Source: Burkholderiales bacterium (lineage in GTDB: Bacteria > Pseudomonadota > Gammaproteobacteria > Burkholderiales > SG8-39). From it: DNA of 64,000 nt. Position numbers and translations under genes: made by a program. How positions within the stretch are numbered: position 1 is the first letter of the stretch; the number at the start of each line of letters is the position of its first letter. Location of the stretch: the NCBI GenBank assembly GCA_023383795.1, contig JAHDYJ010000012.1, positions 5,307 through 69,306 of the forward strand. The letters are read 5' to 3'. Of the stretch, positions 3,398-64,000 are shown one piece after another. Below the pieces are notes generated by a model. That model did not search any database. It was not told the DNA's origin and was given only the letters and a program-made list of their open reading frames with translations.

Positions 3398-3577
3398 TGC
3401 GCGCTCCTGGCAGGAGGAGGAGGGCCACGCGGGTCTTGGATGCCCTTCTCCGGCCGGCGACGGTCGGGTCGCGCGGGCGCCTGTGCGTGGTCGAGGTCGG
3501 GAAGCGGCCATCATAGGCGCATCGCGCGCGAGGCGCCACCCGCCGCCGGACGCGTGCGCGCGTCGCGCCCGAGAGAA

Positions 3578-4120: not shown

Positions 4121-4698
4121 AGGTCGTTCACCTCGTGCAGGGCGTGCGGCGGCGCGACGCGGCCGTCGAGCGCGAGCTCGATCAGGCGCAGGTGCCCGCC
4201 GTCCGGGTGGAAGCGCGTGCCGAACCCCAGGGCGCCGGCGAGCCCGAGCATGCGCCGGTTCGTCGCATGAACGTCGCCGAGCAGCCTGCGCAGTCCGGCG
4301 TCGGCGGCGCATTCGATCAGGCGCCCGAGCAGGCGCTTGCCGATGCCGTAGCCTTGCCACGGGTCGGCCACGGTGACGGCGATCTCGGCCGCGTGCGGAT
4401 CGTCGTCCAGGCGGGCGTAGCGCGCGACAGCGAGCGGCGTCTCCGCGCCGGCGAACGTCGCGGTGGCGATCAGCGCGAGGTCGCGCGAGAAGTCCACGTT
4501 CAGCAGCCGATCGAGCAGCCGCGGGTTGAGCTTGATGCCGCCGTTCAGGAAGCGATGGTGGAGGCTTTCCGAGGACAGGCTGCGCCCGAGCTCGATCTCG
4601 AGATCGGCGTCGGTGGGCAGGAGGGGGCGGACGGTCACGGCGTGACCGAAGAATACCGGCCAGGCCGTGGTGAGATGCACGGGGGCGTTCGTGCTCAT
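4117..4698 (-). CDS. GNAT acetyltransferase resembling the GNAT domain of Pat-type lysine acetyltransferases
   Basis: LSSESLHHRF, AVARYARL, AEIAVTVADPWQGYGIG (acetyl-CoA motif A), NRRMLGLAGALGF. Confidence 0.85.
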   Translation of the reverse strand: MSTNAPVHLTTAWPVFFGHAVTVRPLLPTDADLEIELGRSLSSESLHHRFLNGGIKLNPRLLDRLLNVDFSRDLALIATATFAGAETPLAVARYARLDDDPHAAEIAVTVADPWQGYGIGKRLLGRLIECAADAGLRRLLGDVHATNRRMLGLAGALGFGTRFHPDGGHLRLIELALDGRVAPPHALHEVNDL

Positions 4699-5375
4699 GG
4701 CGCGTCCTTTCCCGCGAAGAGGTCCGATCGTGCGCCCGCCCCGGCGGAAGGGCGGTCACCGGTGACGGTCCCGCGCATCGATGCCCGGGGGGCGTAGTAC
4801 GCGACCAGCCGCTCGAAGGCGCGCCCGGCGCGGTTCCGCGCGGCGGGATCGGCGAGCAGTCGCCGGTCGTGGTGCGCGGCGAGGACGATCGCGAACAGCT
4901 CGAACGCAAACTGCTCGGGATCCGTCTCGGGGCCGAAGTGACCCTCGGCGACCGCGATCTCCACGGCCCGGGCGACGGCCTCGCGCAGGCGATGCTGCGC
5001 GCCGGCAAGAGCATCCCGGATCGGTCCCGGGCGATCGTCGTACTCGGCGGTGGCGCCAAGGATCACGCAGCCGCCGGGCAGCCCGGGGTCGTCGGCCCAG
5101 GCGAGCCAGCGCTCGAAGAGCGCCCGCAGGCGGGGCAGGCCGCGAGGGGCCGCGAGCGCCGGGCGGAACACCGTTTCCTCGAACCGCTGCTGGGCGCGGC
5201 GCAGGGTGGCGAGCTGCAGCTCTTCCTTGGATCCGAAGTGGGCGAAGAGGCCGCTCTTGGACATGCCGAGACGCGACGCGAGCGGGCCGATGCTGAGGCC
5301 CTCGAGGCCGAGCTCGCTCGCGAGGGCGACGGCCTCGCCGAGAATGTCGTGCCGAGTCTGCTCACCTTTACGCAT
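4695..5375 (-). CDS. TetR/AcrR family regulator
   Basis: MRKGEQTRHDIL start; HTH GLSIGPLASRLGMSKSGLFAHFGSKEELQ. Confidence 0.92.
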   Translation of the reverse strand: MRKGEQTRHDILGEAVALASELGLEGLSIGPLASRLGMSKSGLFAHFGSKEELQLATLRRAQQRFEETVFRPALAAPRGLPRLRALFERWLAWADDPGLPGGCVILGATAEYDDRPGPIRDALAGAQHRLREAVARAVEIAVAEGHFGPETDPEQFAFELFAIVLAAHHDRRLLADPAARNRAGRAFERLVAYYAPRASMRGTVTGDRPSAGAGARSDLFAGKDAP

Positions 5376-5386
5376 GAGCGAGAAAA

Positions 5387-5405
5387 TAGCACGAACGTTC
5401 GATAA
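5387..5405. promoter_or_regulatory. Probable TetR autoregulatory operator (palindrome CGAACGTTCG)
   Basis: Perfect 10-bp palindrome at 5392-5401, ~17 bp upstream of the tetR start. Confidence 0.55.
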
Positions 5406-5508
5406 TAACAAGCGGGCAAGAGGAGAGCGAATTATAGAGAAGTTTCTTATTAATGATTAATAGCTTATATAGATAATCTAATGTGAAGCATTAGATTCTT
5501 GGCACCCG

Positions 5509-53610: not shown

Positions 53611-53626
53611 TGGCCTGAAAGGTGCA
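53611..53626 (+). promoter_or_regulatory. Putative sigma-54 promoter of the PEP-CTERM gene
   Basis: TGGCCTGAAAGGTGCA has GG-N10-GC spacing; PEP-CTERM genes are commonly sigma-54/PrsR controlled. Confidence 0.5.
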
Positions 53627-53699
53627 TGCCCCCTGGCGCTTGGCCTTGCAAAGGTTGTTGCACGGCAGTTCTCTCGACACTTTCTGGGAGGCGACGGCG

Positions 53700-54542
53700 A
53701 TGAAGCGGAAGCTGACGCGTATTGCGCTTGCGGCGCTCGGATCGGCGGGCCTCCTGTGGTCGGCAGCCGCGTCCTCGGCCCTGATCACCTCGTTCACGGC
53801 GAGCGGTACGGTGGGCGCCACGGTAGCCGCCTATCCGACGGCCTTCTCGGCCGGTGCGGGGACGCTGACGGTCAGCGGCATCCCGGCCGGCGCGAGCATC
53901 CTGCAGGCCTACCTCTACGCGAACAACTACTTCGGTACGCCGGACGCGTCCGCTACGTTTGACGGAAACGCCCTCGGCGCGGTTGCGCCGTTCGCGACCG
54001 ACGGCGGGTTCTCCGCCTATCGCTGGGACGTCACCGGCCTGGTGACCGGCGACGGCGCCTATTCGGCGAGCTACAGCGGCCCGACCAACACGTACGGTCT
54101 CGCGCTCGCGGTCGCGTTCAGCCACCCGAGCCTGCCGGTCTCGACCGTGTGCATCAACGACGGCGCCGTCGACATCGATGGCCCCGAGACCGCCAGCACC
54201 TCCTGCGCCGGCATGGCCGCGGGGAGCGGGACGCTGTGGATCCATACCGCGGCCGACAATGCCCTTGGTGAGTCGGGCGAAGAGATCCGCTACAACGGCG
54301 CCGTGGTCGGTGGTCCGATCGACGCAAATCTCGGGGACTTCGCCAGCCTGTTCGAGCTCGCGGTCACGAACCTGGACGGCCTGAACACGGCGGAGATCTT
54401 CTCCCCGGCCGACCAGTTCGGGTGGGACCTCGCGGTGTTTGCCGGGCCGGCTGGCGAGACGGGAGTGCCGGAGCCCGGTTCGCTCGCGCTGCTCGGCCTC
54501 GGCCTGGCGGCCTTCGCGCTCGCGCGTCGCAGGAAGTCCTGA
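53700..54542 (+). CDS. PEP-CTERM sorting-domain surface protein (DUF3344-like body)
   Basis: Signal peptide; C-terminus VPEPGSLALLGLGLAAFALARRRKS. Confidence 0.93.
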   Translation: MKRKLTRIALAALGSAGLLWSAAASSALITSFTASGTVGATVAAYPTAFSAGAGTLTVSGIPAGASILQAYLYANNYFGTPDASATFDGNALGAVAPFATDGGFSAYRWDVTGLVTGDGAYSASYSGPTNTYGLALAVAFSHPSLPVSTVCINDGAVDIDGPETASTSCAGMAAGSGTLWIHTAADNALGESGEEIRYNGAVVGGPIDANLGDFASLFELAVTNLDGLNTAEIFSPADQFGWDLAVFAGPAGETGVPEPGSLALLGLGLAAFALARRRKS

Positions 54543-55034: not shown

Positions 55035-55640
55035 TTAGCGCATTGCCTCGCGGGCCATTCGCAGGATGTCATCCAGTGGATTGCCGTCGCCGTTCAGGTC
55101 GAGCATCGAGGCGAGCCCCGGCGCCGCGGCGCCCGGCGACTCGCTGCCGGCGCCGGCGGCCTGGCCGCCGAGCAGGCTCCCCAGCAAGCCTCCGAGCGCG
55201 CCGCCCGCCGGAGCCGGCGGCGCCGCAGCGCTGCCGCCCTGTTGCTTCGCCACGAAGCCTGCGACCAGCATCGCCAGCATCGGCAGCATCTTCCTCAGCA
55301 GGGACGGATCGAGCCCCGACTGCGAGGCCGCGTTCTGCGCGACCGCGCGGCTCACGTCCTTCGAGCCGAAGATCTGTCCGAGCACGTCGTTGCCATGGCT
55401 GACGTCCGTAGGCTGCGGTGCGAGCACCTCGTCGAGCAGGCTGCCGCCGCCGAGCCGCCCGAGCAGGCCGCCGAGCCCTTCGAGCCCCGAGGGTTGCGAC
55501 TGTGCCTGCTTCTTGAGTCCGCCTAGGATCGCCGGGATAAGCGCTTCGGCTCCGCTCGCCGCTTGGGTCTCGCTGACGCCCAGTTCCCGCGCCATCGACC
55601 GGAGGCCGCCCGCCTGGGCGAGGATATCGGTGATCTGCAT
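55035..55640 (-). CDS. DUF937/YidB-like protein
   Basis: GNDVLGQIFGSKDVSR, KMLPMLA, LDLNGDGNPLDD. Confidence 0.8.
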   Translation of the reverse strand: MQITDILAQAGGLRSMARELGVSETQAASGAEALIPAILGGLKKQAQSQPSGLEGLGGLLGRLGGGSLLDEVLAPQPTDVSHGNDVLGQIFGSKDVSRAVAQNAASQSGLDPSLLRKMLPMLAMLVAGFVAKQQGGSAAAPPAPAGGALGGLLGSLLGGQAAGAGSESPGAAAPGLASMLDLNGDGNPLDDILRMAREAMR

Positions 55641-55677
55641 GTGCTTCCCCCGTTGGCTGAGTGACCGCACCGCCGGC

Positions 55678-56082
55678 TCAGTCCAGGAGCTCCTTGGGCA
55701 CGTTGCCGCCATTGGCGGCGATGCGCGCGAGCACGGTCTTGTGCAGCCACATGTTCATCTTCGCCGAATCACCCATCAAGTCAGCCGGGCAGCCGAGCTC
55801 CGTGGCGAGTTCCTTGCGCGCGGTGAAGCTGCTGTCGATGTCCAGAAGCTTCAGCAGGTCGACGATGGACGTCCGCCAGTTCAGCTTCTGCGGGTTCGCC
55901 GCTGCGCGCTTCTCCAGTTGCGCAACAACATCGACAACGGCGATCGGCTTGGGCGGCGGTGGTGCAACTGGCGCCGTCACTGGGCCCGCCGATGCCGCGG
56001 TGGGCGCAGGGGTGGGAGGTGCGGCGGCAGCCGCAGAGGTACCCATGCCGAGCTTCTCGAGGATCTTGCTGAAGAATCCCAT
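55678..56082 (-). CDS. DUF3597 domain protein
   Basis: LNWRTSIVDLLKLL, ARKELATELG, DSAKMNMWLHK, NGGNVP. Confidence 0.88.
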   Translation of the reverse strand: MGFFSKILEKLGMGTSAAAAAPPTPAPTAASAGPVTAPVAPPPPKPIAVVDVVAQLEKRAAANPQKLNWRTSIVDLLKLLDIDSSFTARKELATELGCPADLMGDSAKMNMWLHKTVLARIAANGGNVPKELLD

Positions 56083-56420
56083 GTTGCTCTCCTTGAGCTT
56101 GAGTGGTTGGTGTGTGACAGTGCACCCCCATTGAGTGCAAGCCTGCGGCACACTCCGATACGCACGACGACGGGCTGGGAGGTCATTCCGACGGGTTCGT
56201 CGATAGTCACGCTCGCGAAGTGCCGCTGCCAGAACCGCGAAGATGCCCCGTAGTCCGAGGCAACGCATTGAATTCAGTCTAGCGGTCGAAATCGAGCAGG
56301 TGTTGAGGCAAGTCAACTGCCCTGGGGTGCCCGCCCGATCCCCGGCGGGAAAGAATTCGAGTGGACCTCGGACTGCTAGGAACGCCGTTCGGCCGGCACG
56401 CCTTCGTCACGGCAAGCCGG

Positions 56421-56451
56421 AAACGAAAACGGCCAGCGCACGCTAGCCGTT
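56421..56451 (-). terminator. Terminator downstream of the tRNA-Asn 3' end (chromosomal side of the att site)
   Basis: Minus strand AACGGCTAGCGTGCGCTGGCCGTT followed by TTCGTTT. Confidence 0.6.
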
Positions 56452-56459
56452 GAATTGAC

Positions 56460-56504
56460 TGGCTCCCCGACCAGGGCTCGAACCTGGGACCTGCGGATTA
56501 ACAG
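56460..56504 (-). mobile_element. att site: 3' half of tRNA-Asn(GTT), 45 bp
   Basis: Minus strand CTGTTAATCCGCAGGTCCCAGGTTCGAGCCCTGGTCGGGGAGCCA = anticodon loop, T arm and CCA; the 5' half is absent. Confidence 0.9.
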
Positions 56505-56669
56505 AGCGCTTTTACACTCCGCGGCGCAAGACATTACACCTTCGCACAACACAGAACAACAGGGACGGCGGGCGTTTGTCTGCATGAGTGACATTTGCCG
56601 CAGCCACACGAGCCCGCGCAGGACGCGCCAGAACGGCCGCTGCGCGATCGCAGAGGCGAGGAGATAGGA

Positions 56670-56695
56670 TGGCCCAGCGCGCTAGCCCAGCGCGC
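56670..56695. repeat. 13-bp tandem direct repeat, candidate integrase arm-type sites
   Basis: TGGCCCAGCGCGC / TAGCCCAGCGCGC, ~170 bp inside the att site. Confidence 0.5.
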
Positions 56696-56856
56696 AGTGG
56701 CGCCAGATACGCAAGGCGGTACGCGTGAATTCGGCGAGGATCAGATGTCCGCGACCCGCACCGTCGGGGTGGCGCTCACGGATGAGCCGCACTTGCGCTC
56801 GAGCGCGCCGCTCCATCGCCGCCGCGTCGCCCGGGCGGTCGGTCGGCATGCCGGCC

Positions 56857-56943
56857 TCACGACCTCGTCGGCGATGGCGTCGGCGCCGAGCTCGCGCCCA
56901 GGGCGAGCCGATTCGGAAAGCGCTCCCCGGAATTCGCCGTCAT
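56857..56943 (-). pseudogene. 28-codon remnant resembling the N-terminus of a DUF2460 distal-tail protein
   Basis: ATGA-coupled to the tape measure stop; MTANSGERFPNRLALGASSAP resembles the recalled DUF2460 start pattern RFP-x-x-I/L-A/S-x-G-A/S-x-G-G-P. Confidence 0.4.
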
Positions 56944-59003
56944 GCGTTGTGCCTGAGCGCGCTCTGGATCGCGAGCCCGACCTCGGCGCCGGTCTGCTTG
57001 GCGCTTGCTCCGGTCGTGCCGCCTGGCACGGTGACGTTGATAACGATCGAGTGTCCGCCGCGGCCGCGCCCGGCCGGAGTGATCGTCACGCGCTCGCCTG
57101 GGGCGGCGCTGATCGGCACCAGGCGCTCGGCCGAGCCTGTCCCGGGCACGGTGAACGCGCCGCCGTGCTGGAAGGGCCCGAAGACGCCGCTCGCGAGCAC
57201 CTGGTCGATCGCAAGGCCGCCGGCGCCGCCGCCCAGGCCGAACAGTTTGAGGAAATCGAAGTTTCCGCCGGCGATCTCTTTCGCCGTCTTCGAGGCGAAC
57301 CCGCCGAGCGGCTCCGTCACGAATGCGCGCGTCCCGATCCTGCGCAGATCCTTTTCGAGCGCGTTGAGGACATCGCGCAGGTTCTCGCCCTCGACGACGG
57401 CATCCTCGAAGGCGCTCGAGAAGACGGGCCCCAGCTCCTGCCAGGCGTCGCGCAGATCGTCGGACTCATCGGTGATCCGGCGGAGCTCCTCGTCGAGCTC
57501 GGCCATTGCCTCGCGCGCCTTGACGGCGTTCGCGCCGCCGCGCTCGAGCTCGCCCGCCATCAGGGCGAATTGGCGTCGGTTCTCCTCGATGCGCCCGGTG
57601 CGCGTCGAGGCGAGCAGCCCCTCGATCGCGCGGGCGCGGTCCTGCGCGGCCTGGATCTCGCGCTGGGCGAGGTCCTCGGCCGCCTGCGTCGCCTCCTCCT
57701 TGAGCCGGGTGTCCTCCTTGTAGAGATCGATCTTCGCTGCAACCGCGACGAGCTCGTCCTTCTGCGCGGCGGTGACTTTCAGGGTGCCGAGCTCGTACTG
57801 ACCGAGAATCTCGAGCACCCGGGAGCCCTCCGCGCTCTGCCGGTTCAGCTCCGAATTGAGCGAGGCGAGGGTGCGCTGGAAATCGTCGGCCTCCTTGCGG
57901 GCCGATGCCGTGCGCGTCTTGAGCGCGGCCGGAAGGTCGGGCGCGCGGGCGAGCGGGCCGCTCGGTCCGGCGGGAGTCGCTTGTGCGAGCGTCTCCCGCG
58001 CCTTCATGAGCCGCTCGATTTCGGCTTTCTCCTCACGGATTTTGCCGAGTCGGAATTCGATCACCTTCGTCGCGTTCTCGTCGCTCGTCAGGAACCGGGC
58101 GATGGCGCCGCGCTGTGGTACCTGCTCGAGCTCCTTCAGCAGCTGCTGCTCCTCCTGCACGAGCTCGTGGAAGCGCCCGAGATTGACGTTTCCGGAGAAC
58201 GCGAGCTTGAAATTCTCGCTAAAGGTGAGCGCCGAGCGGCCGGCGCCGAGGAAGGCGCTGGTGAGCTCGCTCAAGCCGAGTAGGAGCGGCCTACTGAGCT
58301 GGAGCTTGAGTCCCTCGAGCCGCTGCCCGAGCCGGGTTAGGTCGTCATTGAATTGCTCGGCCGCACGCGCGGTCTGCGTGTCGATGACGATGCCGAGGCG
58401 CTCGGCCTCGGCGCGCATCGCCTCCAGCCCATTCGCGCCCTGGTTCAGGAGCGGGATCAGATCAGCGCCGGCGCGGCCGAAGAGCCGGGTCGCGATTGCC
58501 GTCTTGCCGGCGCCATCCTCCATCTTCTGGAACCGGTCGGCCACCTCGGCGAGGATCGTGTCGGAGCCCTTGAGCACCCCTTGGGCATCCTTGACTGAGA
58601 TCCCGAGTGCCGCGAAGGCATCCTTCGCCTCCCCGGTGCCCTTCGCCGTGTCGAGCATGTTCACCGAGAGCCGTACGAGCGCTGTCTCGAGGTTCTCCGC
58701 CGAGACGCCGGAGAGATCCGCGGCGAAGCGGAGCGCACTGAAGGCCTCCGTGGTGACTCCGGCCCGCTGCGCCGCCTTGCCTGTCTCGTCGGCGAGGTTC
58801 GCGACCCCACGCGCAGCGGCCACCAGGCTCCCGGCGCCGAGCACGCCCACGAAGCCCGCGAGTGCGGTGCGCGCCGCACCAAAGCTGCCAGCCAGGCCCT
58901 TCGAGCGCTTCTCGAGCCCCTCCAGCCCGCGCGTGACCGACGCGAACGCGCCCCGTGTATCGTCGGTGGCGGTGATGCGAAAGTTCGGGTCGCGGGTCGC
59001 CAT
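56940..59003 (-). CDS. Phage tail tape measure protein
   Basis: RITATDDTRGAFASV N-terminus; helical repeats FAALGISV, LFGRAGADLIPLLN, AEQFNDDL; C-terminus FQHGG...PGERVTITP...IVINV. Confidence 0.85.
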   Translation of the reverse strand: MATRDPNFRITATDDTRGAFASVTRGLEGLEKRSKGLAGSFGAARTALAGFVGVLGAGSLVAAARGVANLADETGKAAQRAGVTTEAFSALRFAADLSGVSAENLETALVRLSVNMLDTAKGTGEAKDAFAALGISVKDAQGVLKGSDTILAEVADRFQKMEDGAGKTAIATRLFGRAGADLIPLLNQGANGLEAMRAEAERLGIVIDTQTARAAEQFNDDLTRLGQRLEGLKLQLSRPLLLGLSELTSAFLGAGRSALTFSENFKLAFSGNVNLGRFHELVQEEQQLLKELEQVPQRGAIARFLTSDENATKVIEFRLGKIREEKAEIERLMKARETLAQATPAGPSGPLARAPDLPAALKTRTASARKEADDFQRTLASLNSELNRQSAEGSRVLEILGQYELGTLKVTAAQKDELVAVAAKIDLYKEDTRLKEEATQAAEDLAQREIQAAQDRARAIEGLLASTRTGRIEENRRQFALMAGELERGGANAVKAREAMAELDEELRRITDESDDLRDAWQELGPVFSSAFEDAVVEGENLRDVLNALEKDLRRIGTRAFVTEPLGGFASKTAKEIAGGNFDFLKLFGLGGGAGGLAIDQVLASGVFGPFQHGGAFTVPGTGSAERLVPISAAPGERVTITPAGRGRGGHSIVINVTVPGGTTGASAKQTGAEVGLAIQSALRHNA

Positions 59004-59006
59004 CGG

Positions 59007-59204
59007 TCATCCCTCACAGCCGCTTCCGCCGGTCGTGGCGCGCCGCCGGCGCACGGCCTTGCCCGCCCAGGCCGCGAGCCGATCGGCTGCGCGGCATCGC
59101 GGGCACGTCCTCTCGTTGCCGGTCGGTCGGAAATTCATGCGGCAAGCCTCGCAGCCGACGATCGGGAGCTCGGCGGGCGGCGGCCGTTCCGGCGGCTTAC
59201 GCAT
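59007..59204 (-). CDS. Small zinc-ribbon protein (CxxC...CxxC)
   Basis: CEAC...CPRC; start overlaps the upstream ORF stop; ends 3 bp before the tape measure start. Confidence 0.5.
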   Translation of the reverse strand: MRKPPERPPPAELPIVGCEACRMNFRPTGNERTCPRCRAADRLAAWAGKAVRRRRATTGGSGCEG

Positions 59205-59412
59205 CGGCCGCGAGATTGTCCAACGCCGCACGCAGCGCCGGCGGCACCCAGAGGTCCACGCGGTCGGGATCGACTTCGCCGCGGCGCACGGCCCGCTCAA
59301 GCTCGAGCCGGAAAACGTTGCAAGCTACTTCGCGGGCGAGCCAGGTGCAGTGGCGATTGAGGCGACGACGGACCGCGCGCGGCAGTTGGTTGCCATGCAT
59401 GTAGTTCAGCAT
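59197..59412 (-). CDS. Small hypothetical protein with LPRAVRRR..RHCTW motif (copy 2)
   Basis: MLNYMHGNQLPRAVRRRLNRHCTWLAR; tightly packed between neighbours. Confidence 0.55.
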   Translation of the reverse strand: MLNYMHGNQLPRAVRRRLNRHCTWLAREVACNVFRLELERAVRRGEVDPDRVDLWVPPALRAALDNLAADA

Positions 59413-59582
59413 CCGGCGACGCCCGCGGCCGCCCACGGGGGAAGGAATAAGCCCACAACGGCCGCGGACGCGCCGGATTCCGTTAATGCCCGATCAGCGC
59501 GACGCGCGATCCACGTGCAGTGTCGAGCAGCTCGGCGACGGACCGCGCGGGGGAGGTGTGGCTGCGGACACACACTCGGCAT
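59406..59582 (-). CDS. Small hypothetical protein with LPRAVRRR..RHCTW motif (copy 1)
   Basis: MPSVCPQPHLPRAVRRRAARHCTWIAR; starts 17 bp after the capsid stop. Confidence 0.5.
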   Translation of the reverse strand: MPSVCPQPHLPRAVRRRAARHCTWIARRADRALTESGASAAVVGLFLPPWAAAGVAGC

Positions 59583-59599
59583 CCGGCAACGGATTCGCG

Positions 59600-61612
59600 C
59601 TAGTTGCCGATCAGTCCCACGAGCGGGCCGGCGGTCGTCGCGTCGCCGATGTCGTGCACGAGCGCGTGGAAGCGCTCGGTCGCTTTGATCCCGATCTGAT
59701 CGAATTCGGCGTAGCGCTCGGTGAGGATCTGCAGCCGGATATCGCGCCGCAGGCCGAGCTTCGAGGCGAGGCGCAAGTTCCCGAACGCGATCATCACTTG
59801 GCCGGAGTAGTCCGTCGTCGCGCCGGCCGGCAGCACCGGCGACGTGTAGACAGGGAAGCCACCGTAAGCTTTGGGGATGTCCCCGGCGAGATCGGACACC
59901 GCGTTCCCGGCAAGCCCCTGCAGGATCCGGAAGAACGTCAGGCCCCAGGCGCGGTGTGAACAGTAAAAACCGGCGCCGTCGTACGCGACCTCGGGCAGGG
60001 CGGCCACTAGCGCTGCAAGATCCGCGGCGTCGATCTCGGCGAACGTATCGTGGTTGGCGCCGGCGAGCACCTGGCCGCCGTCGTGGCTGCCATCCACCAG
60101 GAGGTGAAACACGCCGCGCATGCCGCCGTACGTGGAGGTCGCGTCGCCCAAGAAGCCGCACTCATCTTCTTTCTTCGCGAACGCGCGGCCGATCTGGAAG
60201 GCCACCCGATCCGCGATCGCGATCGGCGAGTCGTCCATCAGTTCCGTCGGCACGCGGACGAGCGAGGCCGCCTTGCGCGCGACGAGATTGACGGTTTCCC
60301 ACGCGCCTTCGCTGTCGGGGATTTCGGCGCTCTCCTCGACGAAGTTCACTTCCGGATCGGAGGCCGACCGCGGGACGGTTAGGGTGTCCGTGTTCATCGG
60401 CCATACGTCGGAGCGCATGCGGAACACGCCGTGCGAGTCGGCGAGGTCGATGATTGTTGCCGACAACTGATCGGGCACGAGCGCACCGCCCTGGCTGAGA
60501 ATCTGTCCGCTCATGGCCCGGACTTCCAGGCCGTTGGCGCCACACCAGGCGATAGCGCCCCGATCGCCGTAGAGCGCGCGGAGCCACTGCCCCGCAGCGA
60601 ATGCGCGCGCCTGCGCGTCCGGGCCCTTGAAGTGCTTCGGAAGGGGAAGCTGCTCGCGCGCGCCGGCGCCGTAGCTCGACGTGACGTACGCGGGCTCGGC
60701 GGTGTTCAGCGGCGGCGTGCCGAGCGAGAGCCGCCCCAGCATGCGCTGACGGAACATCTCGACCGTTCCGCTCGGTTCGGCAGCGACCGCGGCGGCGATC
60801 TCCGGCCCGCCACGGCCGACGAATTCATTTCCGGCGCGCAGGATGTCTGCCACGCGCTGCCGCTCGCGCGCGGCGCTGTCGTCGAACTCGCGCGCCTCGA
60901 GCTCACCGCCGGCGCGCAGGATCCGGCGCTCGCGCCGGCTGAGATTGCCGGCGTCGCCGGCGTCGTCGTGGATCGTCATGGGAATAAATCCTTTCGCATG
61001 CGAAAAAAGTTGGCGACCGACGCCGACTGAGGGATCGGCCGGCACCGAGACAAGCGAGCCCTCCAGCGGCTCCCAGTCGATGACGCGGTACGTGGATACG
61101 CCCTCCTCCTGCCTCTCGAGGACGAGGTCGTGGATCAGGTAGCCCACCGATGCATTCGTGCGGATGCCGTCGAGCACATCGCGCCAGATCTCCTCGGCGC
61201 GCGCGGAACGGCCGAACCGCGCGGTGACCTGCAGCTTTCTGTCGGACGTGACTTCCCAGCGCTCCCCCACGCCCACGTGATCGCGGGCATCGTGGCCGAC
61301 CAGAAGCGGGAAGCCGGCCTCGAGCCGCATGTCGCGGATCGAGCCCCGGCCATGATCGAGGATCTCGAAGCCCCACCAGCGCTCATAGCTGGCTTCGCTC
61401 GAGATCGAAAGGGTGACGGTGCGCGCCTCTTCGTCGATCGCCCCGCGATCGAGCCGGAGGAAGCGCTCCTGGCGCTTGCCGCGCAGCGCGGCGATGCGCG
61501 CCTCCGGCTGGAGGGCGAGGAACTTCCGATGCCGCGCTGCGACCGCACGCACCTGCTCGACGGCGCCCGATGTGCCGGCGGCGCTCCATTCCATCTCGAA
61601 GTCAATGGTCAC
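59600..61612 (-). CDS. HK97-type prohead protease fused to scaffold and major capsid protein
   Basis: Protease motifs PLLVGHD, ASVGY, EGSLVSVPAD; capsid motifs GGALVP, FVEESAEIP, VPTELMDDS, FAKKEDECGFLGD, FGNL, ATERF; GTG start inferred. Confidence 0.88.
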   Translation of the reverse strand: MTIDFEMEWSAAGTSGAVEQVRAVAARHRKFLALQPEARIAALRGKRQERFLRLDRGAIDEEARTVTLSISSEASYERWWGFEILDHGRGSIRDMRLEAGFPLLVGHDARDHVGVGERWEVTSDRKLQVTARFGRSARAEEIWRDVLDGIRTNASVGYLIHDLVLERQEEGVSTYRVIDWEPLEGSLVSVPADPSVGVGRQLFSHAKGFIPMTIHDDAGDAGNLSRRERRILRAGGELEAREFDDSAARERQRVADILRAGNEFVGRGGPEIAAAVAAEPSGTVEMFRQRMLGRLSLGTPPLNTAEPAYVTSSYGAGAREQLPLPKHFKGPDAQARAFAAGQWLRALYGDRGAIAWCGANGLEVRAMSGQILSQGGALVPDQLSATIIDLADSHGVFRMRSDVWPMNTDTLTVPRSASDPEVNFVEESAEIPDSEGAWETVNLVARKAASLVRVPTELMDDSPIAIADRVAFQIGRAFAKKEDECGFLGDATSTYGGMRGVFHLLVDGSHDGGQVLAGANHDTFAEIDAADLAALVAALPEVAYDGAGFYCSHRAWGLTFFRILQGLAGNAVSDLAGDIPKAYGGFPVYTSPVLPAGATTDYSGQVMIAFGNLRLASKLGLRRDIRLQILTERYAEFDQIGIKATERFHALVHDIGDATTAGPLVGLIGN

Positions 61613-61800
61613 GGCCCGTCCCGCTTCACCACGGCGCCGCGCAAATAAGAAAGCCGGCGCCGACAACGTCGATCCCGCTGCGCGGGTCCACTGTCGCCGG
61701 CGGCCGGCTGGCCGCTTCGTCTCGAGGCTCGCATGGCCGCGGGTTCGTGCGCCTGGCGGCGCGCCCCATTTCAGCCGAGAATCTCGGCAGAGACGCGGCA

Positions 61801-61829
61801 ATCTTGCCACCGCGCAGGATCCTTGGCAA
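61801..61829 (-). promoter_or_regulatory. Candidate sigma-70 promoter for the capsid-tape measure operon
   Basis: Minus strand TTGCCA-N17-CAAGAT; CTTGCCA/TGGCAAG inverted repeat overlaps both hexamers. Confidence 0.4.
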
Positions 61830-61849
61830 GTGGCTCACCCGGTGAGCCA

Positions 61850-62140
61850 TCAATTTGCGCGCTGTGCACGCTCGGCGCGCTCGGCGCGCTCGACGTCAAT
61901 CGCGCCCAAGGTTGCCGCCAGTGCGTTCAGCCGGCTGGGCAGGATGCGCGTCCAGTTGTCAGCGTCAATCGGGCTGTCGGTTTTCCAGCGGACGAGCTCG
62001 TCGCGGCGGGCGATGCCAACGGCGCCCGCCGCGTTGTGCCCGCAATGGACGTGCACAAGGTCAAGGTCGTCGTTCAGCGGCCGGCGCATGGCGCCGGCCA
62101 AGCACTCTTGGCAAATCGTCGTCGGCCCGTTCACTTCCAC
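61850..62140 (-). CDS. Hypothetical protein with CxxC...HxHC
   Basis: AGGAG RBS; ICQECL...HVHCGH; lies between terS and the capsid gene. Confidence 0.6.
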   Translation of the reverse strand: MEVNGPTTICQECLAGAMRRPLNDDLDLVHVHCGHNAAGAVGIARRDELVRWKTDSPIDADNWTRILPSRLNALAATLGAIDVERAERAERAQRAN

Positions 62141-62153
62141 CTCCTGTGTCAGA

Positions 62154-62660
62154 CTAAGGCTGCTCCAGTGCCGCGGCGAGCGCGGTCAGCGCACGCCGGA
62201 CCTCATGCTCGAGGAGGCGTTGCGCCGCTGGCGGATCCGCCGGCGCAACGATCGCGGCGACGCGAGCCGGAAGCGCCAGCATCGCGTCGGCAACCATCCG
62301 GGCGGTCTCCTGCTGGCTCCGGCGCACGTCGTCGGCGTCTACGAGCCGCCCGGCGCGGCGGGCGAGCTCGAGCTCTTGGCGGTCCGCCTGCGCACGCAGC
62401 AGCCGTTTCCGGTCCGGGTCGTCGGCGCCGCGGCGCGCGACTTCACGAGCGAGCCACCATTGAACCGCGGCACCGGCGTCGTATAGCCGGTGCCGGCCAC
62501 GGTCGCCGAGGCATGGGAGCCCTTCGCCTTCCCAGGCGACAATCGATGCGGCCGACACGCCAAGTACGCGGGCGAGCTGCCGCTGCGTGAGCTCGACCGC
62601 GCCATCAGCCTCCACGATTGCCGCTGAATCCTCAGAGGGAGGCTTAACTTCAGCGCTCAT
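62154..62660 (-). CDS. Terminase small subunit, lambda Nu1-like (PICI Rpp-like)
   Basis: Winged HTH LTQRQLARVLGVSAASIVAWEGEGLP...YDAGAAVQWW; coiled coil RKRLLRAQADRQELE..GRLV; LALPARVA. Confidence 0.82.
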   Translation of the reverse strand: MSAEVKPPSEDSAAIVEADGAVELTQRQLARVLGVSAASIVAWEGEGLPCLGDRGRHRLYDAGAAVQWWLAREVARRGADDPDRKRLLRAQADRQELELARRAGRLVDADDVRRSQQETARMVADAMLALPARVAAIVAPADPPAAQRLLEHEVRRALTALAAALEQP

Positions 62661-62684
62661 GTTCCTCACCTTCTAGCGCTTTTT

Positions 62685-62726
62685 CGAGGCTGGAACGCTC
62701 GCAACGCGATCGGCCAGGAAGGACCC
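62685..62726 (-). other. Lambda-like cos site (cosQ GGGTCCT plus cosN-like sequence)
   Basis: Minus strand GGGTCCTTCCTGGCCGATCGCGTTGCG-AGCGTTCCAGCCT-CG parallels lambda GGGTCCTTTCC...TTACG-GGGCGGCGACCT-CG, immediately upstream of terS as in lambda. Confidence 0.6.
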
Positions 62727-62743
62727 GCAAACGGCGGGCGCAT

Positions 62744-62905
62744 GAACCTTGCGAACCTTCGTGAACCCTTCTGAACGCGTGCGTAGAAAAGTCTCCACAT
62801 CACCAACCGCTTTTATTTCCCACTAGAGGGTTCGATAGGTTCGGTAGGTTCAGATGCAGATCTGGCGCGGCGATCGAGCCGAACCACCCCCGAACCTACC
62901 GAACC
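62744..62905. repeat. GAACC iterons in both orientations (putative replication origin)
   Basis: GAACC at 62744/62753/62763, GGTTC at 62829/62838/62847, GAACC at 62881/62892/62901; 9-11-bp spacing, at the 3' end of the VapE gene. Confidence 0.65.
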
Positions 62906-64000
62906 CTCTTCCGCTGGCGCTTCCCACACGCGCCGCCGCAAGGCGCCGACTTGGCGCCGGGCCCAGCCAAGGCGCCGCAGGATTGCTCCGGCCCGGAGCT
63001 GCGCGCGCCGATCCTGGCGGGCGGCCTCGAGGCCCACGGCCGCGCGTAGCAGCTCCCCGATCTCTACTTGTCGGAGCTGCGCGACGTGCATCGCGACGCG
63101 GTCTTCCCACGGATCACCCTCGTAACGCTGCTCCTGGGCGGCCGCGGCCTCGCCCGCGGGCACCTCCCACCACGGCTCGCGCAGCTCGCGGACGCGATGC
63201 AGCGCTTCGGCGAAGAGTTGCTCGCGATTGGCGCCAATCCAGTCAAGATCGATCGCACCGCAGCGCACCGGCCAGAAGCGCCGCGCGCCAGTCGCGTCGC
63301 GCAGGTAGTGCGATTCGTTAGTCGTGCCGACCATGACCGAGGTACGCGGCAGCTCGAGCGTGCGCCGGCCATAGGGCGGGCGGAAGTTGTCGACGCGGCG
63401 CGACGCGAAAGCCTTGATGGTTTCGGGCTCGCGTCGATTGAGCGCCTCGAGCTCGGGCAGCTCCACAATCAGGCGGCCGTGGAGCTCGAGGATCGCGTCC
63501 TTGCTGCCGAGTGGACTTAAGATCTCGCCGTACCAGTCGCCGCCGAGCGTCTCAAGCGCCTGGCTCTTCAGCCGGCCCTGCCCCGATTCGAGCACGACGA
63601 TGTGGTCATGCTTGCAGCCTGGCCAGATCAGGCGCGCTGCCGCAGCCTTCAGGAGGTTGGCGCCGATCGCGATCGCGTACGCCGTATCGTCGCCCCCGAA
63701 CGCGCGTGACACGAGCAGATCCGCACGACTCACGCCGTCCCAGCGAAGACCGAGCAACCACGAGAGTGGCTCGCAGCGCTCGTGCTCATGGGCGACGAGT
63801 TCGACGCCCTGGCGCACAGGGTCGATTCCGATACGCGGCAGGCCGACCTCGGTTTGCAGCAGCCGCAGTAGGCGCAGCTCATCAACATCGCGCCAGTCCC
63901 GCGGTGTGGCGTCGTGATCGACACGCACCCGCTGGTAGAAGCGGTCGAAGTAGAGCGCGCCCTTGTAATCCGGATGGAAATCCAGCACGCGCGCGACGTT
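62813..64000 (-). CDS. VapE (virulence-associated E) primase-helicase, 5' truncated by window edge
   Basis: LRWDGVSR, PGCKHD, Walker A GQGRLKS, ELPEL, RPPYGR, GTTN..YLRDATGARRFWPV, REQLFAEA. Confidence 0.92.
   Translation of the reverse strand, partial: NVARVLDFHPDYKGALYFDRFYQRVRVDHDATPRDWRDVDELRLLRLLQTEVGLPRIGIDPVRQGVELVAHEHERCEPLSWLLGLRWDGVSRADLLVSRAFGGDDTAYAIAIGANLLKAAAARLIWPGCKHDHIVVLESGQGRLKSQALETLGGDWYGEILSPLGSKDAILELHGRLIVELPELEALNRREPETIKAFASRRVDNFRPPYGRRTLELPRTSVMVGTTNESHYLRDATGARRFWPVRCGAIDLDWIGANREQLFAEALHRVRELREPWWEVPAGEAAAAQEQRYEGDPWEDRVAMHVAQLRQVEIGELLRAAVGLEAARQDRRAQLRAGAILRRLGWARRQVGALRRRVWEAPAEEGSVGSGVVRLDRRARSASEPTEPIEPSSGK

What the first reader, a model, noticed from the sequence alone, without database searches (positions are those of the whole stretch)
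56460..64000. tRNA-Asn-integrated satellite with its own terS, cos, protease-capsid and tape measure gene, but no portal, TerL or tail
Seen: VapE > iterons > cos-like site > Nu1-type terS > small ORF > protease-capsid fusion > three tiny ORFs > tape measure > att, all on one strand in ~7.5 kb. Known: Gram-negative PICIs carry pri-rep, a TerS homologue (Rpp) and sometimes a capsid gene; cf-PICIs carry complete head modules (portal, TerL, connectors); I know of neither class carrying a tape measure gene. Inference: a satellite type that borrows TerL, portal and tail parts from a lambda-cos helper while supplying the parts that set packaging specificity, head size and tail length or DNA ejection. 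The visible genes are intact and tightly packed, which argues against random prophage decay.
Basis: partly seen in the sequence, partly recalled or inferred. Interest (0 to 1): 0.92.

Follow-up and report, generated by a model that had tools for sequence, protein, structure and literature searches.

The report
Phage satellite with capsid and tape-measure genes
This is most likely one end of a small mobile element that parasitises a lambda-like phage: it carries its own packaging-recognition, head-shell and tail-ruler genes but not the packaging motor, portal or tail, a layout that resembles satellites described only in 2025-2026.

Summary
The order is VapE-type replicase, nine GGTTCR iterons, a conserved cos-like motif, a Nu1-type TerS, a 96-aa ORF, a protease-capsid fusion, small ORFs, a 687-aa tape measure protein (TMP), then a 45-nt 3' piece of tRNA-Asn. 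The contig ends inside the replicase gene, so integrase and the intact tRNA cannot be seen. The rest of the element is not in the assembly.

In 116 of 144 related capsid loci a lambda-type portal lies next to the capsid gene, usually with a gpA TerL upstream. Here, and in seven other loci, those genes are missing. Three of the seven are complete units of 8.8-9.5 kb. Two are bounded by tRNA-derived repeats and one is circular. They carry integrase and primase, two also an AlpA-like regulator, then the capsid fusion. Three of the seven also carry a TMP or a truncated TMP-like gene directly after the capsid gene. The window's capsid sits in a clade with no phage-type member (support 0.976).

It is therefore a PICI-like satellite, not a random prophage remnant. 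Satellite TMPs are no longer unheard of: PLEs (2026), mycobacterial EPIPs (2025) and some cf-PICIs have them. This is a new variant, not a new kind. How the TMP is used is inferred, not shown.

The parts
56460..56504 (-). 3' 45 nt of tRNA-Asn(GTT), from the anticodon loop to the CCA end. It is the att repeat at the TMP end of the element.
   Evidence: It is 100% identical to the 3' 45 nt of complete tRNA-Asn genes of G009, G010 and G011. In 7 of 8 fetched loci the match lies inside an ARAGORN-called tRNA-Asn. Homology of the chromosomal flank with same-genus genome G002 ends at 56477.
56505..56939 (-). 435-nt spacer between the TMP stop and att. It holds one unsupported 55-aa ORF (56682..56849).
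   Evidence: ORF list and composition. No homologue was found in the other satellite loci.
56940..59003 (-). Tape measure protein, 687 aa, intact.
   Evidence: PF10145 1.4e-9 and phrog_8462 2.3e-52. It is 45% identical over residues 1-686 to the 696-aa TMP of the complete siphophage contig L196. The next best relatives in 5.8 billion proteins are 45-46% identical and 693-696 aa long.
59007..59300 (-). Small ORF with a CxxC..CxxC zinc ribbon. The likely real start is the ATG at 59204 (65 aa). It is in frame with the TMP, separated from it by a stop and one codon.
   Evidence: Translation and composition. Only sub-threshold zinc-ribbon hits in Pfam. Its GC2 of 0.77 is not typical of a gene, so its reality is uncertain.
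59197..59436 (-). 79-aa ORF directly after the capsid gene, function unknown.
   Evidence: Gene-like GC1/2/3 of 0.80/0.50/0.79. It is 33% identical over 70 aa to the ORF that follows the capsid gene in satellite locus L086. No family or usable Atlas hit.
59600..61594 (-). Fusion of prohead protease and HK97-fold major capsid protein (664 aa from the ATG at 61594; the frame is open up to 61810).
   Evidence: PF05065 1.6e-24; phrog_617 3.4e-51, phrog_4523 2e-36 and phrog_80 'head maturation protease' 4e-6. A family profile matches solved HK97-fold capsid proteins, best the RcGTA capsid 6tba at 5.5e-17. The window protein keeps all 46 columns that are invariant among 30 aligned homologues.
61850..62140 (-). 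96-aa ORF. It is the only gene between TerS and the capsid fusion, where phage relatives carry TerL, a ~185-aa gene and the portal.
   Evidence: Gene-like composition 0.71/0.51/0.81. Weak homologue (24% over 82 aa, E=1.3e-6) at the same position in L086. No family and no usable Atlas hit.
62154..62669 (-). Small terminase subunit of the lambda Nu1 type. The probable start is the ATG at 62660, behind AAGGTGAGG.
   Evidence: PF07471 1.7e-11 and phrog_57 1.6e-27. It is 29-35% identical to the TerS of satellite loci L009 and L189.
62717..62728 (-). Conserved cos-like motif GCGGGTCCTTCC, 57 nt upstream of TerS.
   Evidence: GGGTCCT is on the sense strand at -57 to -122 in 13 of 26 distinct TerS-upstream regions (expected 0.011 per region). 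It lies between the replicase and the head genes in the window and in all 7 other satellite-type loci. It also lies 205 nt upstream of the TerS of a lambda-like prophage that shares a genome with satellite L189. That it is a terminase site is inferred.
62743..62905 (.). Nine GGTTCR iterons (3 direct, 3 inverted, 3 direct) around a relatively AT-rich stretch, spanning the 3' end of the replicase gene and the intergenic region. Putative replication origin.
   Evidence: 9 sites in 163 nt, against 83 in 64,000 nt on both strands. That it is an origin is inferred from its position next to the replicase gene. That SaPI origins lie in that position is recalled, not taken from a call.
62813..64000 (-). 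C-terminal part of a VapE-domain primase/helicase. The ORF continues 372 nt past the window to the contig end; its N-terminus is missing.
   Evidence: PF05272 4.5e-63. phrog_256 6.9e-72, aligned to profile positions 386-700 of 798. Longer homologues (926-1147 aa) add a DnaG-type zinc finger, and one adds Toprim.

Best explanation
The stretch is the structural and replication half of a tRNA-Asn-integrated, PICI-like phage satellite of a lambda-like cos siphophage. The proposed life cycle is as follows.

1. After induction by a helper, the VapE-type replicase fires at the GGTTCR iteron origin.
2. The satellite's Nu1-type TerS binds next to the shared cos-like site (CGGGTCCTTCC). It recruits the helper's gpA-type TerL, so satellite concatemers are cut and packaged.
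3. The satellite's own protease-capsid fusion assembles on the helper's portal into a shell sized for a genome of roughly 9-12 kb.
4. The satellite's TMP is threaded into tails built from helper tube, tip and chaperone proteins, giving chimeric tails as shown for PLEs.

Shown: gene identities and order; absence of TerL, portal and tail-tube genes between TerS and att; the att fragment; the iterons; the conserved motif; and the same architecture in complete, att-bounded or circular relatives. Inferred: induction, origin function, cos function, capsid size, use of the helper portal and TerL, and incorporation of the TMP.
For: **Gene content and order.**

**Phage relatives have what the window lacks.**
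- Phage relatives have TerS, gpA TerL (PF05876 and PF20454), a ~185-aa gene, a lambda-type portal (PF05136), then the capsid fusion.
- Of 144 distinct full-length capsid fusions, 116 have a portal hit within 1.2 kb upstream.
- The window has 14 nt plus a 96-aa ORF there, and only 597 nt between capsid and TMP. Full phages have roughly 1.8-7 kb in that second gap.

**Seven other loci share the reduced layout.**
- L189 is a complete 8.8-kb unit between tRNA-Val and a 48-nt repeat: integrase, primase, TerS, capsid fusion.
- L355 is a complete 8,953-bp unit between perfect 47-nt repeats at tRNA-Arg. It holds integrase, an AlpA-like gene, primase, capsid fusion, a 415-aa TMP-like gene and a neck protein.
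- L272 is a 9,450-bp circle (144-nt terminal overlap). It holds integrase, an AlpA-like gene, a primase-like gene, capsid fusion and a 650-aa TMP.
- L009 has TerS, small ORFs, capsid fusion, a small ORF, then TMP.
- L086 and L356 have TerS and the capsid fusion without a TMP.

**Phylogeny.** The window's capsid falls in a clade (support 0.976) of five. Three are confirmed satellite-type, two are of unknown context, and none is phage-type.

**Cos-like motif.** It is shared by phages and by all the satellite loci. It is also present upstream of the TerS of one of two gpA-type prophages that share a genome with satellite L189.

**Insertion boundary.** The flank is 89-91% identical to a same-genus chromosome up to the tRNA fragment.

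**Precedent.** PLE TMPs are incorporated into chimeric tails and are needed for transduction (PMC12987554, passages read). EPIPs carry TerS, MCP and TMP (PMC12822802, passages read).
Against: - The element is cut by the contig end. Integrase, regulator, intact tRNA-Asn and total length are unseen. TerL, portal or tail genes beyond the replicase cannot be formally excluded; they would be in an unprecedented position.
- No helper is visible. The assembly has no lambda-type portal and only a sub-cut-off gpA hit. Apart from a weak partial match in one genome (G045, E=7.9e-9), the capsid fusion was not found in the other 59 of 60 relatives searched.
- No TMP chaperone gene is recognisable next to the TMP, unlike in PLEs.
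- There is no direct evidence of excision, replication or packaging for this element. The laid contigs gave no clean empty-site or circle junction.
- The satellite state was assigned by eye from gene maps. The automatic rule also flagged 12 loci that I reclassified as phages because a portal or tail genes lie further off.
- TerS was not recognised in the two complete TMP-bearing relatives L272 and L355.
Confidence: 0.72

Rival explanations
1. It is a satellite as above, but the TMP is not a virion part of the satellite. It would be either an interference or defence factor that poisons helper tail assembly, or a recently captured passenger gene with no role in transfer.
For: - No chaperone gene accompanies the TMP.
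- One relative, L355, keeps only a 415-aa N-terminal TMP-like protein.
- Three of the seven other satellite-type loci (L086, L189, L356) do without any TMP.
- The window TMP is closer to a phage TMP (45% over the full length) than to the TMP of its capsid-clade relative L272 (29% over residues 72-231). That fits repeated capture from phages.
- Interference with tail assembly by satellite-borne genes is documented: the Tai abstract in the listing, and Rta in PMC12987554.
Against: - The full-length intact TMPs in the window and L272 match the length of phage TMPs (687 against 693-696 aa; 650 aa against a 657-position profile). That is what a working ruler needs.
- A TMP sits directly after the capsid gene in three separate capsid lineages.
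- In PLEs the satellite TMP is incorporated and is required for transfer.
Confidence: 0.18
2. It is a decayed lambda-like prophage. Random deletions removed TerL and portal, and separately the connector-to-chaperone genes. What remains is inert.
For: - Every gene has phage homologues. The TMP is an ordinary phage TMP.
- The tRNA-Asn site is an integration hot spot that holds a different island in G002.
- No helper is found in the genome.
- The element cannot be seen whole.
Against: - Two precise deletions leaving all flanking genes intact would have to recur independently in seven other loci from different capsid lineages.
- Three of those are complete ~9-kb units with their own integrase, replicase and att, and one is circular.
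- The capsid clade of the window has no phage-type member.
- All 46 family-invariant capsid/protease residues are kept.
- Iterons and the cos-like motif are intact.
Confidence: 0.07
3. It is an autonomous 'mini' HK97-fold virus, or a domesticated capsid element of the GTA or encapsulin kind, that needs no helper phage.
For: - Small 5-11.6-kb metagenomic genomes with an HK97 capsid protein, integrase and replication genes, but no portal, terminase or tail, have been described. A helper-free lifestyle was raised as one hypothesis for them (PMC13669383, passages read).
- The best solved-structure match of the capsid domain is the RcGTA capsid.
Against: - This element has a Nu1-type TerS and a cos-like site shared with phages that carry gpA TerL. 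Those are meaningless without a large terminase and a portal.
- A TMP is meaningless without a tail.
- The integrase, att and replicase in relatives mark a mobile element, not a domesticated locus.
Confidence: 0.03

Closest known systems
Capsid-forming PICIs (cf-PICIs; Alqurainy et al. 2023; SatelliteFinder paper PMC10085698, passages read; preprint abstract seen in the listing)
   Same: - It is a chromosomally integrated satellite.
- Its complete relatives have the order integrase, AlpA-like regulator, primase.
- It makes its own HK97-type capsid protein and protease, fused as in some Firmicutes cf-PICIs, and has its own TerS.
- Some cf-PICIs are reported to hold putative tmp genes (PMC12987554, Extended Data Fig. 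10 legend).
   Different: - cf-PICIs are defined by also carrying TerL, portal, head-tail adaptor and connector, so they steal only tails.
- Here TerL, portal and connectors are absent between TerS and att. The helper's portal and motor must be stolen as well.
Classical Gram-negative PICIs with a TerS homologue (Rpp), and cos-type SaPIs with the capsid homologue Ccm. The Rpp work is recalled, only its title being seen in a reference list; the Ccm abstract was seen in the listing (PMC8569155).
   Same: - Small size and tRNA or other specific att sites.
- A replicase with an adjacent iteron origin.
- A TerS-type protein that redirects helper cos packaging.
- In SaPIbov5, a capsid-protein homologue that resizes the head.
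   Different: - Classical PICIs are described as lacking other structural genes.
- This element carries a full protease-capsid fusion rather than a remodelling factor, plus a TMP.
- SatelliteFinder treats tail profiles as forbidden components for PICI and cf-PICI. It may therefore reject the TMP-bearing members if a tail profile matches their TMP. I did not run it.
PLEs of Vibrio cholerae (PMC12987554, Nature 2026; passages read)
   Same: - A satellite-encoded TMP.
- In PLEs it replaces the helper's TMP in chimeric tails. Its deletion cuts transduction by 96-99.9%.
- This is the experimental precedent for the role proposed here.
   Different: - PLEs parasitise a virulent myovirus.
- They pair tmp with a chaperone, and sometimes with a baseplate hub.
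- They use the helper's capsid protein.
- No PLE protein was compared here, so relatedness is untested. No chaperone is recognisable here.
EPIPs of Mycolicibacterium (PMC12822802, bioRxiv Dec 2025; passages read)
   Same: - Small satellites carrying TerS, a major capsid protein and a TMP, without tail genes or holin.
- Particles have small heads.
   Different: - Actinobacterial host and a serine integrase.
- They also carry a scaffold, a head-tail adaptor and a stopper.
- They are isolated as particles with long, variable tails.
- Here there is a tyrosine integrase (in relatives), a protease-capsid fusion, a Nu1-type TerS and a proteobacterial host. No sequence comparison with EPIPs was possible with the tools.
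'Twilight-zone' mini HK97-fold genomes from metagenomes (PMC13669383, Nat Commun Oct 2026; passages read)
   Same: - Units of 5-11.6 kb with DTRs, holding an HK97 capsid protein, integrase or excisionase, and replication genes.
- No portal or tail.
- One ORF in that set was annotated as a TMP.
- The circular 9.45-kb relative L272 would fall in this size class.
   Different: - Those genomes are reported without terminase or other packaging genes, and many have encapsulin-like capsid domains.
- This family has a Nu1 TerS in 5 of 8 loci, a cos-like motif shared with phages, and a protease fused to the capsid protein.
- Whether any of my loci are in their data set could not be checked, because supplements are closed.

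Membership tests
PICI (classical, Gram-negative type) | Integrase at one end and site-specific att repeats | tested here: inconclusive
   One att repeat, the tRNA-Asn 3' 45 nt, is present. The integrase end is off the contig and not in the assembly. Relatives L189, L272 and L355 have a tyrosine integrase, and L189 and L355 have both repeats.
PICI (classical, Gram-negative type) | Own primase/replicase with an adjacent origin | tested here: met
   VapE-domain replicase, with nine GGTTCR iterons at its 3' end. Origin function itself is inferred.
PICI (classical, Gram-negative type) | Packaging gene of the TerS type | tested here: met
   PF07471 1.7e-11 and phrog_57 1.6e-27.
PICI (classical, Gram-negative type) | No other phage structural genes; tail genes are forbidden components in SatelliteFinder | tested here: not met
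   A protease-capsid fusion and a TMP are present. The forbidden-component rule was read in PMC10085698.
cf-PICI | Own TerL | tested here: not met
   No ORF larger than 96 aa lies between TerS and the capsid gene. tblastn with 7 gpA TerL queries gave no hit, and PF05876 gave only a sub-cut-off hit elsewhere in the assembly. The unseen part beyond the replicase cannot be excluded.
cf-PICI | Own portal, head-tail adaptor and connector | tested here: not met
   PF05136 has no match in the assembly, and 8 portal queries gave no tblastn hit. Only 597 nt lie between capsid and TMP. The complete relatives L189 and L272 also lack them; L355 has one neck/tail-completion gene.
cf-PICI | Own major capsid protein and prohead protease | tested here: met
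   A fused protein: PF05065, phrog_4523, phrog_80. HK97-fold matches in the PDB.
PLE | tmp paired with a tail assembly chaperone; helper ICP1; Vibrio host | tested here: not met
   No chaperone homologue lies next to the TMP. By its relatives, the host belongs to another order of the same class or beyond. The TMP is of the siphophage PF10145 type.
Intact temperate lambda-like siphophage | TerS, TerL, portal, head, connectors, tail tube, chaperones, TMP, tail tip | tested here: not met
   Compare the gene maps of phage relatives with the window.
Phage satellite (functional definition) | Helper-dependent induction, packaging and transfer | not testable with these tools
   This needs induction or infection experiments. 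The only indirect support is the circular 9,450-bp relative L272 in a viral-contig collection, and gpA-type prophages that share a genome with relative L189.

The most novel reading that the evidence does not exclude
These elements are an unclassified, widespread lineage of ~9-12-kb satellites of lambda-like cos siphophages. They encode only the two 'rulers' of a virion, the shell protein that sets head size and the tape measure that fills the tail, plus the packaging address (TerS and cos). They steal the portal, motor, connectors, tube and tip. The TMP has been captured repeatedly from helper phages. Capture would be selected because a satellite-specific TMP lets satellite DNA enter cells, for example helper lysogens that block entry through the helper's own TMP, or lets the satellite escape tail-targeting defences. 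Current satellite finders may miss the TMP-bearing members, because they forbid tail genes.
Probability: 0.3. Interest if true: 0.78.

Novelty: new variant of a known kind. Interest (0 to 1): 0.6.

Why it matters
- **An intermediate degree of piracy.** Satellites are usually sorted by how much of the virion they steal. Classical PICIs, P4 and PLEs steal heads and tails; cf-PICIs steal only tails. This family makes its own shell and, in half of the loci found, its own tape measure, yet depends on the helper for portal, motor and every other tail part.
- **A wider range for satellite TMPs.** It extends the very recent finding that satellites can encode TMPs (PLEs 2026, EPIPs 2025) to PICI-like elements of Proteobacteria from wastewater-type communities.
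- **A conserved cos-like motif.** The motif links satellites and candidate helpers, so it could be used to pair them in metagenomes.
- **A possible blind spot in detection.** SatelliteFinder lists tail genes as forbidden components, so such elements may be discarded.
- **Limits.** The host here is known only from a draft assembly. The element is incomplete, and nothing about its function has been tested.

Tried and rejected
**Extending the element.**
- blastn of the contig end, of the tRNA fragment and of the whole element against the assembly found only the contig itself.
- tblastn with three longer VapE homologues hit only an interior locus on C185, which I guess is the chromosomal primase gene. 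Four satellite integrases gave nothing at E<=1e-8.
- The rest of the element is not in the assembly.

**Looking for the empty site.**
- The same-genus genome G002 shares the flank up to 56477. It then holds a different insertion with two partial tRNA-Asn pieces and no intact tRNA within 14.5 kb. No clean attB was obtained.

**Sequencing runs.**
- 20 of 24 listed rows hold part of the stretch, and 9 hold at least half of its words. Those 9 are sludge, bioreactor, biofilm and wastewater metagenomes from six coded studies, two of them possible sources.
- Laying contigs of X3, X7, X14 and X15 at 90% likeness gave hundreds of short, partly foreign pieces and many 21-24-nt 'joints' of no value.
- Pieces with no differences cover both the flank and the element in X3, and the element in X7. 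Unitigs of X3 and X7 both start at 56475, inside the tRNA repeat.
- No empty-site or circle junction could be read from this.

**Small ORFs.** Pfam at E<=0.1, PHROGs and the protein Atlas gave nothing usable for the 96-aa, 79-aa and zinc-ribbon ORFs, or for the small ORFs of L009, L272 and L355.

**Rfam.** No family reached E<=0.1 in 56000-64000, and the truncated tRNA is not detected.

**Isolated phages.** No deposited phage covers 80% or more of the capsid fusion or the TMP. The best are Vibrio phage VP882 (33% over 67% of the capsid fusion) and Paracoccus phage Shpa (47% over 24% of the TMP).

**dN/dS.** Not attempted. The nearest relatives are 45-58% identical in protein, so synonymous sites are saturated. 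I used conservation of invariant residues and intact length instead.

**TerS-based locus search.** Considered and dropped, because the four satellite TerS proteins are only 28-34% identical.

**Structure and complex prediction.** Not used. The large proteins are identified by sequence, and the small ORFs have too few homologues for a useful alignment.

**Automatic classification.** The rule 'no portal hit within 1.2 kb and at least 1.4 kb of upstream flank' flagged 16 loci. I kept 4 as satellite-type: the window, L086, L175 (= L189) and L352 (= L356). I added L009, L272 and L348/L355 after reading their maps. I moved 12 to 'phage': L067, L083, L084, L091, L177, L194, L203, L211, L214, L217, L237 and L250. 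In those, a portal, a TerL-sized ORF pair or tail genes lie in the locus. Nine loci with too little flank stayed 'unknown'.

Full report
**Where the window lies.** The window is positions 5307-69306 of a 69,678-nt contig in a 234-contig, 4.9-Mb draft assembly. The contig ends 372 nt after the window. The DNA is about 70% G+C, so every frame holds long spurious ORFs. Third-position G+C and homology place all real genes of 56.4-64 kb on the minus strand.

**What is there.** Reading the minus strand from 64000 downwards:

| Feature | Coordinates | Evidence |
|---|---|---|
| VapE-domain primase/helicase, C-terminal part | 62813..>64000 | PF05272 4.5e-63; phrog_256 6.9e-72 on profile positions 386-700 of 798, so the N-terminal part is missing |
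| Nu1-type small terminase | 62154..62669 | PF07471 1.7e-11; phrog_57 1.6e-27 |
| 96-aa ORF | 61850..62140 | gene-like composition |
| Prohead protease fused to HK97-fold capsid protein | 59600..61594 | PF05065 1.6e-24; phrog_4523 'major head and protease protein' 2e-36; phrog_80 4e-6 |
| 79-aa ORF | 59197..59436 | homologue in L086 |
| Zinc-ribbon ORF | within 59007..59300 | |
| Tape measure protein, 687 aa | 56940..59003 | PF10145 1.4e-9; phrog_8462 2.3e-52 |

A family profile of the capsid fusion matches solved HK97-fold capsids, best the RcGTA capsid (5.5e-17).

After 435 nt comes 56460-56504. This stretch is 100% identical to the 3' 45 nt of tRNA-Asn(GTT) genes of three relatives. In 7 of 8 fetched loci the match lies in an ARAGORN-called tRNA-Asn. 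The chromosomal flank is 89-91% identical to a same-genus genome up to 56477 and then diverges. The element boundary therefore lies at the tRNA fragment.

**Iterons and a cos-like site.** Nine GGTTCR hexamers lie in 62743-62905, as three direct, three inverted and three direct copies, 9-11 nt apart, around a relatively AT-rich stretch. The whole window has 83 on both strands. They span the 3' end of the replicase gene and the intergenic region. That SaPI-type origins sit in this position is recalled, not taken from a call.

Fifty-seven nt upstream of TerS lies GCGGGTCCTTCC.
- I compared the 450 nt upstream of TerS in all fetched loci. GGGTCCT stands on the sense strand at -57 to -122 in 13 of 26 distinct regions. 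These come from genomes of 41% to 68% G+C. The expectation is 0.011 per region.
- It is also present, on the gene-sense strand between replicase and head genes, in every satellite-type locus examined: the window, L009, L086, L189, L272, L355 and L356. It is absent from the two short contigs L085 and L087.
- I read it as part of the terminase recognition or cleavage site. That is inference.

**What phage relatives look like.** The capsid fusion has many relatives: 951 proteins at E<=0.001 among 8000 scored candidates, the best non-self at 58% identity. I fetched loci from viral contigs, metagenome contigs and whole genomes.
- In phage-type loci the order is Nu1 TerS, a 650-700-aa TerL, a ~185-aa gene, a 475-600-aa portal, then the capsid fusion.
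- Pfam confirms gpA ATPase and nuclease domains (PF05876, PF20454) and a lambda-family portal (PF05136).
- The TMP follows after about 1.8-7 kb of connector, tube and chaperone genes.
- Of 144 distinct full-length capsid fusions, 116 have a portal hit within 1.2 kb upstream.
- The window has only the 96-aa ORF between TerS and capsid, and 597 nt between capsid and TMP.

**The reduced layout recurs.** Seven other loci lack portal and TerL next to the capsid fusion.

| Locus | Source | Size and bounds | Gene order | TMP |
|---|---|---|---|---|
| L189 | complete 2.7-Mb genome, same order | ~8.8 kb; tRNA-Val and a 48-nt repeat of its 3' end (90%) | tyrosine integrase, small ORFs, PriCT-2/DUF3987 primase, Nu1 TerS, capsid fusion, repeat | no |
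| L355 | genome of the same class | 8,953 bp; perfect 47-nt repeats at tRNA-Arg | integrase, AlpA-like HTH, primase/helicase, small ORFs, capsid fusion, TMP-like, 189-aa 'tail completion or Neck1' protein | 415-aa TMP-like (phrog_9483 3.7e-39) |
| L272 | viral contig | 9,594 nt with an exact 144-nt terminal overlap, so a 9,450-bp circle | integrase, 147-aa ORF, HTH_17/AlpA-like, 83-aa ORF, primase-like protein, small ORFs, capsid fusion, TMP 156 nt later | 650 aa (phrog_9483 5.1e-99 over the whole profile) |
| L009 | 4.4-kb viral contig | incomplete | TerS, two small ORFs, capsid fusion, one small ORF, TMP: the window's order | yes (runs off the contig) |
| L086 | 8-kb metagenome contig | incomplete; ends at tRNA-Pro | primase/helicase, TerS, homologue of the 96-aa ORF, capsid fusion, homologue of the 79-aa ORF, two unknown ORFs | no |
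| L356 | genome of the same class | near tRNA-Glu | TerS, two small ORFs, capsid fusion | no |

The seventh label, L175, is the same place as L189. Including the window there are 8 satellite-type loci. Four carry a TMP or TMP-like gene and five a recognised TerS. One further candidate lies in a genome flagged as unpublished and is not used.

How often genomes have the capsid fusion at all:
- 17 of 401 genomes sampled from the order.
- 11 of 400 sampled from the class, at E<=1e-20.
- 2 of 61 close relatives.

Each count includes the window's own genome.

**Phylogeny.** A FastTree (LG+gamma) of the 144 capsid fusions gives these groupings:
- The window falls in the clade (L272,(L086,(L085,(L087,window)))) with support 0.976. 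Three members are confirmed satellite-type, two have too little flank to tell, and none is phage-type. The clade is sister to a phage clade (0.997).
- L355 and L189 form a second satellite pair (0.997).
- L009 and L356 sit alone beside phage clades.

So the reduced state is old within the window's clade, and it has arisen or spread several times.

Modules are shared across these lineages. The L086 and L355 primases are 48% identical, and the L272 and L356 integrases 31%. That is as expected of a common satellite gene pool.

The window's TMP is closer to the TMP of a complete siphophage, L196 (45% over residues 1-686; 696 aa), than to that of its capsid relative L272 (29% over 160 residues). 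L196 has portal, capsid, tube, chaperones, TMP and tip genes. TMPs therefore seem to be exchanged with phages rather than inherited with the capsid gene.

**Helper.**
- The assembly has no lambda-type portal (PF05136).
- It has only a sub-cut-off gpA hit with an internal stop on another contig.
- tblastn with 15 TerL and portal queries gave no hit.
- By contrast, the complete genome that carries satellite L189 holds two prophages with gpA TerL and a lambda-type portal.
- One of them has GGGTCCTT 205 nt upstream of its TerS, and a TMP whose N-terminus is 44% identical to the window's. That is a plausible helper for that relative.

**How it most likely works.**
1. A lambda-like cos siphophage induces the island.
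2. The replicase amplifies it from the iteron origin.
3. The satellite TerS, bound beside the shared cos-like site, recruits the helper's gpA TerL.
4. The satellite protease-capsid fusion assembles on the helper portal into a shell fit for a genome of about 9-12 kb. The complete relatives are 8.8-9.5 kb. This element already spans 7.9 kb without its integrase end.
5. The satellite TMP enters tails built from helper parts.

Only the anatomy and the comparative pattern are shown. Every functional step is inferred.

The satellite TMPs are as long as their phage counterparts: 687 aa against 693-696 aa, and 650 aa against a 657-position profile. A changed tail length is therefore not the obvious purpose. 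The N-terminal PF10145 region is the part conserved across satellites and phages. It may be what must stay compatible with helper proteins. No chaperone gene accompanies the TMP.

**What is known.** That is now out of date.
- **PLEs.** They encode TMP and chaperone genes. The PLE TMP replaces the helper's in chimeric tails, and its deletion cuts transduction by 96-99.9%. The same paper shows putative tmp genes in some cf-PICIs and other putative satellites (PMC12987554, passages read).
- **EPIPs.** These Mycolicibacterium satellites carry TerS, capsid protein, scaffold, adaptor, stopper and a TMP (PMC12822802, passages read).
- **Mini HK97 genomes.** Metagenomic genomes of 5-11.6 kb with integrase and replication genes, but no terminase, portal or tail, have been described. 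One ORF was annotated as a TMP (PMC13669383, passages read).
- **SatelliteFinder.** It treats tail and holin profiles as forbidden components for PICI and cf-PICI (PMC10085698, passages read). It may therefore reject the TMP-bearing members.
- **Search coverage.** My one literature search ('phage satellite', 'tape measure', 'capsid', 'PICI'; 107 papers with at least 3 terms, 25 listed) showed no paper describing this particular combination. That combination is a Nu1 TerS, a protease-capsid fusion and a TMP, without TerL, portal or connectors. This is one search of an incomplete library, and supplements were closed.

**Verdict.** The satellite reading is well supported by comparison, although the element itself is incomplete and untested. 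It fails the membership tests for classical PICI (it has structural genes) and for cf-PICI (it has no TerL, portal or connectors). It is best called a new variant within the PICI-like satellites, and it adds to the new theme of satellite-encoded tape measures.

Noticed in passing
L367 (G002:C1:2298400-2318390, reverse-complemented positions 3005-5443): In a same-genus genome the homologous flank is followed by a different insertion. An 18-nt piece and, 2.4 kb on, a full 45-nt piece of the tRNA-Asn 3' end are present. No intact tRNA lies within the next 14.5 kb, and there are no homologues of the window's element. tRNA-Asn looks like an integration hot spot with tandem islands in this genus.
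   Followed up: partly
window 59001-59009: The zinc-ribbon ORF (59007..59300) is in the same frame as the TMP. It is separated from the TMP's ATG by its stop codon and one further codon. L009 does not share this arrangement, so it may be chance.
   Followed up: partly
L355 6482-8298 (minus strand): This complete 8,953-bp satellite carries a truncated TMP-like protein (415 aa, N-terminal half only). It is directly followed by a 189-aa 'tail completion or Neck1' protein (phrog_27, 1.5e-31). Both would be head-proximal tail parts.
   Followed up: partly
L372 and L373 (G208:C1, about 1.83-1.85 Mb and 1.90-1.92 Mb): Two lambda-like prophages (Nu1-like TerS, gpA TerL, lambda-type portal, TMP) lie in the same complete genome as satellite L189. 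Only the first has the GGGTCCTT motif upstream of its TerS.
   Followed up: partly
L086 2290-2560: Downstream of the primase gene of this satellite lies a dense set of repeats of the type TAAGGTGCTCA / TAAGTTGCTCAA, in both orientations. It sits just before the cos-like motif, a second example of iterons in the same position as in the window.
   Followed up: no
L343 (G000:C76:22778-23026): There is a sub-cut-off match to the gpA ATPase domain (22.2 bits against a cut-off of 25.6) with an internal TAG, elsewhere in the window's own assembly. It is possibly a terminase remnant.
   Followed up: no
Proteins P0014 and P0124: A capsid-fusion relative (46% identity) and a TMP relative (45%, 693 aa) both list a longest contig of 21,283 nt. 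They may lie on one phage contig related to both satellite genes.
   Followed up: no
L272 5143-5334 and L087 2589-2777: The 63-aa ORF that follows the TMP in L272 has a 48%-identical homologue directly after the capsid gene in L087, which has no TMP in between. The TMP looks like an insertion into a conserved capsid-plus-small-ORF arrangement.
   Followed up: no
window 53622-54542 and 55035-55712: The chromosomal neighbours of the insertion site are a PEP-CTERM sorting-signal protein (PF07589, 2.8e-7) and a DUF937 protein (1.7e-18). They are ordinary flank genes and not part of the element.
   Followed up: no
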